Positions 49,803-50,084 of a DNA stretch of 64,000 bases are shown piece after piece (within the stretch, counting starts at the first letter, position 1; each line of letters begins with the position of its first letter). Location: IMG/VR virus record IMGVR_UViG_3300025018_002313; one strand, given 5' to 3'. This DNA is from a virus. Made by a program: the position numbers and the translations under genes. The notes under the pieces were generated by a model. It searched no databases and was not told the DNA's origin. It saw only the letters and a program-made list of their open reading frames with translations.

Positions 49803-50084
49803 TTACACTCTCTCAATATTGACAACGAATGGTGGAGAGTAACCTCTCAATTGATCTCTATGTAGGGTGGCATACTCCTGTCCCTCTACTTCAACAATAG
49901 CCTTGCCTTTGTCATTTGCTTCCTTTACAATCTTGGTCGCTAATCTACGATTGTGACCGAAGGTTTTCATCAAGGCAAGCACCACTTCGTGCATGGTGTG
50001 AACGTTATCGTTCCAGATGATTACTTGATAGAGAGGCTCTATCACTATGGTTGATTGCTCTTTTGGAGCTGTTAATGTTGACAT
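49803..50084 (-). CDS. clpS: ClpS-like ATP-dependent Clp protease adaptor
   Basis: LYQVIIWNDNVHTMHEVVLALMKTFGHNRRLATKIVKEANDKGKAIV parallels E. coli ClpS [25 protein letters not shown]...ATQLMLAVHYQGKAIC; 93 aa. Confidence 0.65.
   Translation of the reverse strand: MSTLTAPKEQSTIVIEPLYQVIIWNDNVHTMHEVVLALMKTFGHNRRLATKIVKEANDKGKAIVEVEGQEYATLHRDQLRGYSPPFVVNIERV

What the first reader, a model, noticed from the sequence alone, without database searches (positions are those of the whole stretch)
49803..50084. Phage-encoded ClpS-like N-degron adaptor among early genes
The 93-aa product aligns along its length with the ClpS core (…VIIWNDNVHTMHEVVLALMKTF…ATKIVKEANDKGKAIV). A phage ClpS could redirect or block host ClpAP N-degron proteolysis. 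It could, for example, protect phage proteins or defence-system degradation targets early in infection.
Basis: partly seen in the sequence, partly recalled or inferred. Interest (0 to 1): 0.5.

Follow-up and report, generated by a model that had tools for sequence, protein, structure and literature searches.

The report
Phage ClpS adaptor with remodelled pocket
A large T4-like phage known only from metagenomes carries a real, selectively maintained copy of the bacterial ClpS protease adaptor. Other big phages are already known to carry ClpS, but this copy has an altered substrate pocket and sits in a conserved four-gene early cassette.

Summary
Bases 49803-50084 on the minus strand encode a 93-aa protein that matches Pfam ClpS (E 8e-16, 58 bits against a cut-off of 23). 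Its AlphaFold model superposes on solved ClpS structures at 1.1-1.3 A.

The window is a T4-like myovirus (tail sheath, large terminase, RNR). The longest contig carrying the gene is about 236 kb. A 75%-identical orthologue in a related phage gives dN/dS 0.16, so the gene is under purifying selection.

Its closest assignable cellular relatives (45-56% identity) are ClpS proteins of the Planctomycetes-Verrucomicrobia-Chlamydiae (PVC) group: Victivallales, Kiritimatiellae and Verrucomicrobia. These often sit directly upstream of aat, the other N-degron pathway gene.

The phage copy keeps N34, D35, M40, V43 (E. coli numbering), a 16-residue disordered N-terminal extension and the clade-invariant residues of helix 3. 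It changes five pocket positions: D36N, N/T38H, M62V, H66N and L99F.

It lies in a conserved cassette (orf63-orf83/89-ClpS-orf55) between a near-consensus sigma-70 promoter and a terminator.

Phage-encoded ClpS is already described (jumbo-phage survey, Atu_ph07, PA5oct), so this is a new member of a known kind. Function is inferred only: it probably modulates the host ClpA/C-ClpP protease with altered N-terminal specificity, or acts as a decoy.

The parts
49803..50084 (-). ClpS-family gene, 93 codons plus stop
   Evidence: dN/dS 0.155 against the L017 orthologue.
50037..50084 (-). Codons 1-16: disordered N-terminal extension (MSTLTAPKEQSTIVIE), followed by junction residue P17
   Evidence: AF2 gives no secondary structure before residue 18; block-mean pLDDT is 62 for residues 1-10 and 77 for residues 11-20. 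Alignment puts E. coli Y28 at phage Y19, so E. coli NTE residues 2-25 correspond to phage 1-16. E. coli needs at least 14 NTE residues for delivery (PMC8666677).
49992..50015 (-). Codons 24-31, WNDNVHTM: beta1-alpha1 loop forming one wall of the N-degron pocket (E. coli V33-M40)
   Evidence: N25 = N34 and D26 = D35 are kept. N27 replaces D36. H29 replaces T38 (Asn in PVC ClpS). M31 = gatekeeper M40. The motif is identical in orthologue P0002.
49914..49916 (-). Codon 57, Asn at the position of E. coli His66
   Evidence: and the sequence. This column is H in 25 of 26 PVC ClpS and in 112 of 148 wider relatives (D 27, N 5, E 3).
50084..50353 (-). orf89 (probably starts at a GTG, giving 83 aa): unknown protein; its TAA stop overlaps the ClpS ATG (TAATG)
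   Evidence: Syntenic homologues in L017 (51%) and L019 (40%, E 6e-15). No Pfam, PHROG or other homologues.
50289..50480 (-). orf63: first gene of the cassette, GTG start after an AAAGGAGGAG ribosome-binding site
   Evidence: Homologues in L017 (82%) and L019 (46%, E 7e-15). No family match.
49521..49688 (-). orf55: last gene of the cassette, strong ribosome-binding site AAAGGAGGTG
   Evidence: Homologues in L017 (51%) and L019 (39%, E 1e-6).
50507..50534 (-). Sigma-70-like promoter TTGACT-16-TATAAT (11 of 12), the best of the 44-58 kb region
   Evidence: The same -35/-10 arrangement is conserved upstream of orf63 in L017 and, more loosely, in L019.
50540..50573 (-). Tandem 8-bp repeats (AAGCGTTC/AAGCGTTG, about 4 copies) directly upstream of the -35 hexamer
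   Evidence: 4 matches against 0.03 expected. The same repeats, 3-5 copies, precede the orthologous promoters in L017 and L019.
49481..49508 (-). Intrinsic-terminator-like hairpin (12-bp stem plus T run) ending the cassette

Best explanation
The gene encodes a genuine ClpS-family protein.

Origin. An ancestor of this phage group probably captured it from a PVC-type bacterial clpS, the kind that normally sits in a clpS-aat N-degron operon. It has been kept under purifying selection since.

Expression. It is transcribed, most likely early and by host RNA polymerase, from a near-consensus sigma-70 promoter. It belongs to a four-gene unit, orf63-orf83/89-ClpS-orf55.

Proposed action, inferred by analogy with E. 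coli ClpS. Its folded core docks on the N-terminal domain of the host's double-ring Clp unfoldase (ClpA or ClpC). Its 16-residue disordered N-terminal extension enters the unfoldase pore. This changes what ClpP degrades.

Specificity. Five pocket positions differ from the cellular consensus: D36N, N38H, M62V, H66N and L99F. Every replacement residue occurs naturally in other ClpS proteins. I therefore think the pocket is retuned, so that the phage adaptor recognises a different set of N-terminal residues than the host ClpS, rather than dead.

Shown: family, fold, phage origin, selection, cassette synteny, promoter and terminator motifs, and which residues are kept or changed.
Inferred: expression timing, docking to the host unfoldase, pocket function, substrates, and benefit to the phage.
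For: Family and fold.

Phage context. The longest contig with the identical protein is 236 kb.

Selection: dN/dS 0.155 with dS about 1.15, so long residence in phages. Gene GC is 42%, like the surrounding phage DNA.

Origin: the best assignable cellular relatives are Victivallales, Kiritimatiellae, Spartobacteria and other Verrucomicrobia MAGs at 45-56% identity. At least 22 such loci have aat 9-180 nt downstream, so the parent subfamily is tied to N-degron biology.

Kept features: 25 of 34 columns that are at least 80% conserved in 26 PVC ClpS. These include N25, D26, V34 and helix-3 residues A72, H75, Q78, L79. The NTE of 16 residues exceeds the 14-residue minimum for delivery in E. coli (PMC8666677).

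Pocket retuned rather than decayed:
- The five changes are identical in the 75%-identical orthologue.
- The third lineage, P0006, shares H29, the PP-aromatic insertion and a beta-branched residue at M62.
- Each replacement occurs in other ClpS proteins.
- A ClpS with Asp at the H66 position sits in a clpS-aat operon (L024).

Transcription unit.
Against: - No experiment exists for any phage ClpS that I could find.
- In my recollection of the E. coli literature, His66 contacts the substrate alpha-amino group and is needed for the high-affinity delivery complex. I could not retrieve a paper stating this. Asn is shorter and may not substitute.
- Two of the three E. coli ClpA-contact residues I recalled are changed (E82T, K84H), and those positions are not conserved in PVC ClpS either. 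Docking therefore cannot be verified by residue matching.
- Pocket residues are not significantly more conserved between the two phage orthologues than the rest of the protein (hypergeometric p 0.19-0.28).
- The enrichment of deviations in the pocket is only p = 0.034, from a post-hoc test.
- The host is unknown, so whether it has ClpA or ClpC is unknown.
- NCBIfam equivalog cut-offs are missed by a wide margin.
Confidence: 0.5

Rival explanations
1. Decoy or inhibitor. The phage protein keeps the unfoldase-docking surface and the pore-engaging N-terminal extension but no longer binds N-degrons productively. It would occupy the host ClpA/ClpC N-domains, displace host ClpS, slow the ATPase and block degradation of ssrA-type and N-degron substrates. 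This would protect phage proteins.
For: H66 is replaced by Asn, with M62V, L99F and D36N alongside. The helix-3 invariants are kept. In E. coli, ClpS inhibits degradation of ssrA-tagged substrates and suppresses the ClpA ATPase, and only 9 NTE residues are needed for the ssrA inhibition (PMC9663308; PMC8666677). Other phage ClpS copies also lack His at this position: Atu_ph07 has Glu and GAP32 has Lys, with a degenerate NDD motif in GAP32.
Against: N34, D35, gatekeeper Met and V43 are strictly kept, and the whole WNDNVHTM loop is identical in the 75% orthologue. That constraint would be unnecessary for a pure docking decoy, though the test is underpowered. Polar acceptors (D, N, E) occur at this position in 35 of 148 relatives, one of them in a clpS-aat operon.
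Confidence: 0.28
2. Repurposed ClpS fold. The domain no longer acts on the Clp protease. It serves as a small binding module for one of its conserved cassette partners (orf63, orf83/89, orf55) or for another host target.
For: The four genes stay together, in order and partly overlapping, in three phage lineages down to 47% ClpS identity. The partners have no recognisable family. No aat, ClpA, ClpC or ClpP was found among 40 other window ORFs scanned against Pfam and/or PHROGs.
Against: The residues kept are those invariant in cellular N-degron ClpS, including helix 3 and the NTE length. Synteny of small early genes is common in related phages and need not mean physical interaction. Flanking genes orf80, orf110 and orf109 are also syntenic in L017.
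Confidence: 0.15
3. Passenger gene with no function for the phage, or a mis-called ORF.
For: Its relatives are patchily distributed among phages.
Against: dN/dS is 0.155 with saturated synonymous change. DNA is identical in 8 contigs. Translational coupling and a ribosome-binding site are present. The model is confident.
Confidence: 0.03

Closest known systems
E. coli ClpS (PDB 1MBX, 3O2B, 2W9R), the N-recognin adaptor of ClpAP
   Same: Same Pfam family and fold: rmsd 1.1-1.2 A over 82 residues, 27% identity. N34, D35, gatekeeper M40, V43 and E79 are conserved. It has a disordered N-terminal extension above the 14-residue functional minimum.
   Different: D36N, T38H, M62V, V65A, H66N, L99F, E82T and K84H. 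Helix 3 is shorter and a PP insertion precedes beta3. The NTE is 16 rather than 25 residues. It is not next to clpA. It falls far below the NCBIfam equivalog cut-offs.
PVC-superphylum ClpS (Victivallales, Kiritimatiellae, Verrucomicrobia MAGs), typically in a clpS-aat operon
   Same: Closest assignable cellular relatives: 45-56% identity over the core. They share the signature FGH...K-I-x-x-EA...AI-x-EVE...A-x-x-H-x-x-QL.
   Different: The phage copies differ at 9 of 34 conserved columns, five of them in the pocket. They carry a 2-residue PP insertion with an aromatic residue in place of the invariant Leu. No aat lies downstream; three small orphan genes flank the gene instead.
ClpS homologues annotated in cultured jumbo phages: PA5oct QCG76141, Atu_ph07 gp708 AUZ95447, GAP32/RaK2 group, Phosso, a Vibrio phage. 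Discussed in PMC7824862 and PMC6102473.
   Same: Phage-encoded single-domain ClpS in large myovirus genomes, proposed to bring targets to the host ClpAP. Some also lack His at the H66 position.
   Different: Only 17-27% identity in structural alignment. They are of proteobacterial ClpS type with the longer beta2-alpha3 region. They give no tblastn hit to this protein at E 1e-3. The neighbourhoods differ: small heat-shock protein genes lie nearby in PA5oct and Atu_ph07.
Arabidopsis ClpS1 (PDB 7D34)
   Same: Highest sequence identity among solved structures: 37% in the Foldseek alignment. It shares the N-D-N motif.
   Different: ClpS1 has Arg as gatekeeper and keeps His at the H66 position (alignment). 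It works with ClpC in plastids (PMC7966870).

Membership tests
ClpS family (Pfam PF02617) | Profile match above the curated threshold | tested here: met
   E 8e-16, 58 bits against GA 23, covering profile positions 3-68 of 80.
ClpS family (Pfam PF02617) | Alpha/beta ClpS fold (beta-alpha-alpha-beta-alpha-beta) | tested here: met
   AF2 pLDDT 87. Foldseek top 36 PDB hits are all ClpS, rmsd 1.1-1.3 A, target-normalised TM up to 0.93.
Canonical N-recognin ClpS (E. coli / Caulobacter type) | Residues that bind the substrate alpha-amino group (N34, D35/D36, H66; roles recalled from the structural literature) | tested here: inconclusive
   N34 and D35 are kept. D36 is Asn and H66 is Asn. Asn, Asp or Glu occur at the H66 column in 35 of 148 relatives, one of them in a clpS-aat operon.
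Canonical N-recognin ClpS (E. coli / Caulobacter type) | Hydrophobic pocket (V43, M62, V65, L99) and gatekeeper M40 | tested here: inconclusive
   V43 and M40 are kept. M62V, V65A (Ala is also the PVC norm) and L99F are changed. The pocket stays hydrophobic but has a different shape.
Canonical N-recognin ClpS (E. coli / Caulobacter type) | Disordered N-terminal extension of at least 14 residues with a junction proline | tested here: met
   16 residues before the core, no predicted secondary structure before residue 18, block-mean pLDDT 62 for residues 1-10 and 77 for 11-20, and P17 at the junction. Threshold from PMC8666677.
Canonical N-recognin ClpS (E. coli / Caulobacter type) | ClpA N-domain contact residues on helix 3 (E79, E82, K84) | tested here: inconclusive
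   E79 is kept; E82 is Thr and K84 is His. These columns vary in PVC ClpS too. The PVC-invariant helix-3 residues A72, H75, Q78, L79 are all kept.
Canonical N-recognin ClpS (E. coli / Caulobacter type) | NCBIfam ClpS equivalog score | tested here: not met
   Best 36.1 bits against a cut-off of 117; eight ClpS models hit, all below their cut-offs.
Canonical N-recognin ClpS (E. coli / Caulobacter type) | Genomic linkage to clpA or aat | tested here: not met
   No aat within about 4 kb downstream in the related phage loci L017/L018. None among 40 other window ORFs scanned against Pfam and/or PHROGs. Only 64 kb of about 236 kb was seen.
Canonical N-recognin ClpS (E. coli / Caulobacter type) | Binds the unfoldase N-domain and switches ClpP substrate choice | not testable with these tools
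   Needs biochemistry or complex modelling with the unknown host's ClpA/ClpC.
Phage-encoded ClpS homologues (PHROG 27368 and annotated jumbo-phage genes) | ClpS-domain protein encoded in a tailed-phage genome | tested here: met
   PHROG 27368 at E 3.7e-9. The window has tail sheath, terminase and RNR genes. Comparable genes occur in 27 phage records and in BFVD.

The most novel reading that the evidence does not exclude
ClpS and its three conserved orphan partners (orf63, orf83/89, orf55) form a dedicated phage takeover module, switched on from a promoter with its own 8-bp repeat array. The module would reprogram the host ClpA/C-ClpP machine to a new class of N-termini. These could be fragments made by a phage or host protease, or a specific host defence protein. 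The module would then be a phage-encoded, specificity-altered N-degron pathway. The same PVC-type ClpS recurs next to PcfJ/SSB genes of conjugative-element-like loci, which would make it a general mobile-element counter-defence or takeover tool.
Probability: 0.15. Interest if true: 0.65.

Novelty: new member of a known kind. Interest (0 to 1): 0.35.

Why it matters
[quoted passage not shown] This copy offers a natural experiment. It is a ClpS under selection in a virus, with five concerted pocket changes relative to its cellular relatives and three co-inherited partner genes.

If the pocket is retuned, it would show that phages redirect host proteolysis by changing N-terminal specificity. It would also provide a naturally altered N-terminal-residue binder. 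If it is a decoy, it would be a compact natural inhibitor of ClpA/ClpC. Either outcome can be tested with standard peptide-binding and degradation assays.

The general idea has been published already, so the gain is incremental unless the cassette proves to be a functional unit.

Tried and rejected
- Megablast of the 4-kb region against the phage collection: no match. tblastn of the protein: one weak hit only.
- IMG/VR scan with the single protein: no relative.
- The word-index homologue search returned only the protein itself and the 75% orthologue. For orf63 and orf89 it returned only self.
- P0005 and P0047, apparent 16-fold 'ClpS repeat' proteins from the exhaustive search, are translated tandem-repeat junk.
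- Single-sequence AF2 of orf89 gave pLDDT 48, which is unusable, so no fold search was run.
- I tested whether the L7/L12-like ORF 57798-58280 is a second ClpS-like domain. hhalign against the ClpS profile was negative, probability 0.2%.
- Pfam and PHROG scans of the cassette and neighbouring small ORFs found nothing, apart from two weak unknown-function PHROG matches for orf80.
- The literature search for the sample accessions, meant to identify the habitat, found nothing. Searches for a paper stating the role of His66 found nothing usable, so that point rests on my own knowledge.
- A statistical test for extra conservation of pocket residues between the two phage orthologues was not significant.
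- No tRNAs in the window.

Full report
OBSERVATION. The ORF at 49803..50084 is real and lies on the minus strand, which the finding did not state. The plus-strand frame is interrupted by stops. Pfam ClpS (PF02617) matches residues 16-81 at E 8e-16, 58 bits against a gathering score of 23. PHROG 27368 ('ATP-dependent protease') matches at 3.7e-9. PDB ClpS chains from Mycolicibacterium, Arabidopsis ClpS1 and E. coli match by sequence. An AlphaFold2 model built on 100 homologues has mean pLDDT 87, with the order strand 18-24, helix 31-42, helix 46-59, strand 61-68, helix 69-80, strand 88-92. Foldseek against the PDB returns only ClpS structures as its first 36 hits, with rmsd 1.1-1.3 A over 78-82 residues and target-normalised TM up to 0.93. 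The refutation test 'no ClpS profile hit' therefore fails, and the family assignment is secure.

CONTEXT. The window is a tailed phage. It has a tail sheath gene (18167-20926), a large terminase (21679-23454), a baseplate hub-like gene and a class II-like RNR (40768-43140). The terminase is closest to T4-like cyanophages at only 32-33% identity. No part of the 48-52 kb region matches any deposited phage by megablast. The identical ClpS protein occurs on at least 22 assembled contigs from several metagenomes, the longest 236 kb. In eight of them the DNA of the gene is identical to the window. A second phage type (L017/L018) carries a 75%-identical orthologue in the same gene order. Between the two, dN is 0.18 and dS about 1.15, giving dN/dS 0.155. 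The gene has therefore been resident in this phage lineage for a long time under purifying selection. Its GC content (42%) matches the surrounding 44-57 kb block (43%), which is richer than the rest of the window (38%).

TRANSCRIPTION UNIT. Reading the minus strand, the elements follow in this order:
- about four tandem copies of an 8-bp unit, AAGCGTTC/G (50573-50540);
- the best sigma-70-like promoter of the 44-58 kb region, TTGACT-16-TATAAT, 11 of 12 (50534-50507);
- a ribosome-binding site, then orf63 starting at GTG (50480-50289);
- orf89, more probably 83 aa from a GTG as called on other contigs, ending in TAATG so that its stop overlaps the ClpS start at 50084;
- ClpS;
- orf55 with a strong ribosome-binding site (49688-49521);
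- a 12-bp-stem terminator (49508-49481).
The promoter and the upstream 8-bp repeats are conserved in L017, and more loosely in L019. Promoter-like sites are somewhat over-represented in the block: 45 against 30 +/- 5 expected. This supports, but does not prove, early transcription by host polymerase.

A CONSERVED CASSETTE. The four genes orf63-orf83/89-ClpS-orf55 are syntenic in three lineages:
- the window phage;
- L017/L106, with identities of 82, 51, 75 and 51%;
- L019/L108, a short contig with identities of 46, 40, 47 and 39% (E 7e-15, 6e-15, 1e-24, 1e-6).
The three partners have no Pfam, PHROG or other detectable relatives. A single-sequence model of orf89 was unusable.

ORIGIN. An exhaustive phmmer search of 1.8 billion representatives gave 220 hits. 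Apart from the orthologue, the best are only 40-49% identical. Scanning one genome per species with a profile of those top hits showed that the closest taxonomically assignable relatives are all from the PVC superphylum: Victivallales/Lentisphaerae, Kiritimatiellae, Spartobacteria, Akkermansiaceae and other Verrucomicrobia MAGs. They are 45-56% identical to the phage protein over the core. Chloroflexia reach 38-43% and Proteobacteria 33% or less. At least 22 of these PVC-type loci have aat (Leu/Phe-tRNA-protein transferase, PF03588, E 1e-73 to 1e-77) 9-180 nt downstream of clpS. The parent subfamily therefore belongs to N-degron operons. One caveat applies: the genome scan was seeded with patterns from that subfamily. 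Even so, the exhaustive search ranks the same signature first. A PVC host is a reasonable guess but is not shown.

WHICH FUNCTIONAL FEATURES ARE KEPT. I verified the E. coli ClpS sequence against PDB 1MBU and mapped positions by alignment.
- Kept: N34 (N25), D35 (D26), gatekeeper M40 (M31), V43 (V34), G69, E79 (E70).
- Changed: D36 to N27; T38 to H29 (Asn in 25 of 26 PVC ClpS); M62 to V53 (Met in 26 of 26); V65 to A56 (Ala is the PVC norm); H66 to N57 (His in 25 of 26); L99 to F86 (Leu in 26 of 26) preceded by a two-residue PP insertion; E82 to T73; K84 to H75 (His is invariant in PVC).
Of the 34 columns at least 80% conserved among 26 PVC ClpS, the phage matches 25. These include all invariant helix-3 residues (A72, H75, Q78, L79); in E. 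coli this helix carries the ClpA N-domain contacts. Of the nine mismatches, five are at positions that line the N-degron pocket in the E. coli and Caulobacter structures (my knowledge of those structures). This enrichment is only marginal: Fisher one-sided p = 0.034, post hoc.
All five changes are shared by the 75% orthologue. The third lineage, P0006, shares H29, the PP-aromatic insertion and a beta-branched residue at M62, but keeps His66. Each replacement residue occurs naturally elsewhere in the family. At the H66 column, 148 relatives show H 112, D 27, N 5 and E 3. One ClpS with Asp there (L024/L109) lies directly upstream of aat.
The N-terminal extension is 16 residues with no predicted structure; block-mean pLDDT is 62 for residues 1-10 and 77 for residues 11-20. 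It has a proline at the junction. In E. coli, length rather than sequence matters: 9 residues suffice to inhibit ssrA-substrate binding and 14 are needed for delivery (PMC8666677).

INTERPRETATION. The protein keeps the parts of ClpS needed to engage a double-ring Clp unfoldase: the fold, the helix-3 invariants of its clade and an extension of sufficient length. It also has a pocket that is altered in a concerted, conserved way. I favour a working adaptor with shifted N-terminal specificity, at about 0.5. A docking decoy that blocks host ClpS, ssrA-type degradation or both is the main rival, at about 0.28. That rival draws support from the loss of His66 and from the known inhibitory side of ClpS action (PMC9663308). 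A fold repurposed to bind a cassette partner is possible, at about 0.15. A non-functional passenger is excluded by selection. None of 40 other window ORFs scanned against Pfam and/or PHROGs is ClpP, ClpA/C or aat, so the target is presumably the host machine. About 170 kb of the genome was not available to me.

COMPARISON WITH WHAT IS KNOWN. Phage-encoded ClpS is not new.
- Atu_ph07 gp708 is annotated as ClpS (PMC6102473).
- tblastn with E. coli ClpS finds 27 phage records: the PA5oct group, Rak2-like GAP32 and fHe-Yen9, Phosso and a Vibrio phage.
- BFVD holds at least nine viral ClpS-fold models.
- A limited IMG/VR scan found eight more.
Those are of the proteobacterial type and share only 17-27% identity with this protein in structural alignment. 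Some also lack His66: Atu_ph07 has Glu, and GAP32 has Lys together with a degenerate NDD motif. I found no experimental study of any of them. The present gene is thus a new, divergent member derived from a PVC-type ClpS. Its two distinctive features are the shared pocket substitutions and the conserved four-gene cassette with its repeat-bearing promoter.

VERDICT. Novelty: a new member of a known kind. Interest is moderate at 0.35. It would rise to about 0.65 if the cassette proves to be a specificity-altered, phage-encoded N-degron module.

Noticed in passing
window 49521-50573 (-); L017 3130-4190; L019 100-1061: The ClpS gene is part of a four-gene cassette (orf63, orf83/89, ClpS, orf55) conserved in order in three phage lineages down to 47% ClpS identity. 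The three partners are orphans with no family match.
   Followed up: partly
window 50540-50573 and 55806-55904 (-): Tandem copies of an 8-bp unit (AAGCGTTC/AAGCGTTG, or GAAGCGTTCAGGCGTTGAAGCG inside a 40-bp repeat) lie directly upstream of two sigma-70-like promoters (50534-50507 and 55779-55750). The array is conserved upstream of the orthologous promoter in L017 and L019. It may be a regulator-binding array for a subset of early promoters.
   Followed up: partly
L110, L112, L113, L114, L117, L118, L120, L124, L039: Another set of PVC-type ClpS genes lies immediately downstream of a PcfJ-like gene (PF14284), with SSB and a WYL-domain regulator nearby in L114 and L120. This context resembles a conjugative element. 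L114 and P0009/L022 also carry Asn at the E. coli His66 position.
   Followed up: partly
window 30791-33283 (+): An 830-aa protein carries Major Vault Protein shoulder (PF11978, 9e-26) and vault repeat (PF17795, 1e-10) domains. It matches solved MVP chains over residues 469-721 (E 4e-13). Its only phage relatives (44-46% identity, full length) are in three huge uncultured phages of 462-735 kb, LR756500/501/503.
   Followed up: partly
window 57798-58280 (-), with 58271-59638 (-) and 61726-62856 (-): A 160-aa ORF has a partial ribosomal L7/L12 C-terminal domain hit (27.2 bits, GA 25.9), a fold related to ClpS. It sits next to a DUF2201_N putative metallopeptidase and a PHROG 'ATPase'. hhalign against the ClpS profile was negative.
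   Followed up: partly
window 2087-2746 (+), 39681-40253 (-), 38660-39241 (-): GTP cyclohydrolase I (PF01227, 2e-48) and a PTPS/QueD-like gene suggest 7-deazaguanine (preQ0-type) nucleotide or DNA modification. A thymidine kinase is also present.
   Followed up: no
window 46000-54000: This block of small, mostly minus-strand orphan ORFs has clearly higher GC (44-47.5%) than the rest of the window (36-40%). Gene content varies between otherwise near-identical contigs L001-L008: small ORFs are gained or lost around ClpS.
   Followed up: no
L103 903-1752; L104 384-1788: In Pseudomonas phage PA5oct and Agrobacterium phage Atu_ph07, the annotated ClpS gene lies within about 1 kb of a small heat-shock protein gene. 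This hints at a proteostasis module in those phages. No such neighbour is seen here.
   Followed up: no
P0005, P0047 (not in window): Two database 'proteins' that scored as multi-copy ClpS matches (16 and 5 stretches) are translations of a perfect tandem DNA repeat. They are artefacts, not ClpS arrays.
   Followed up: yes
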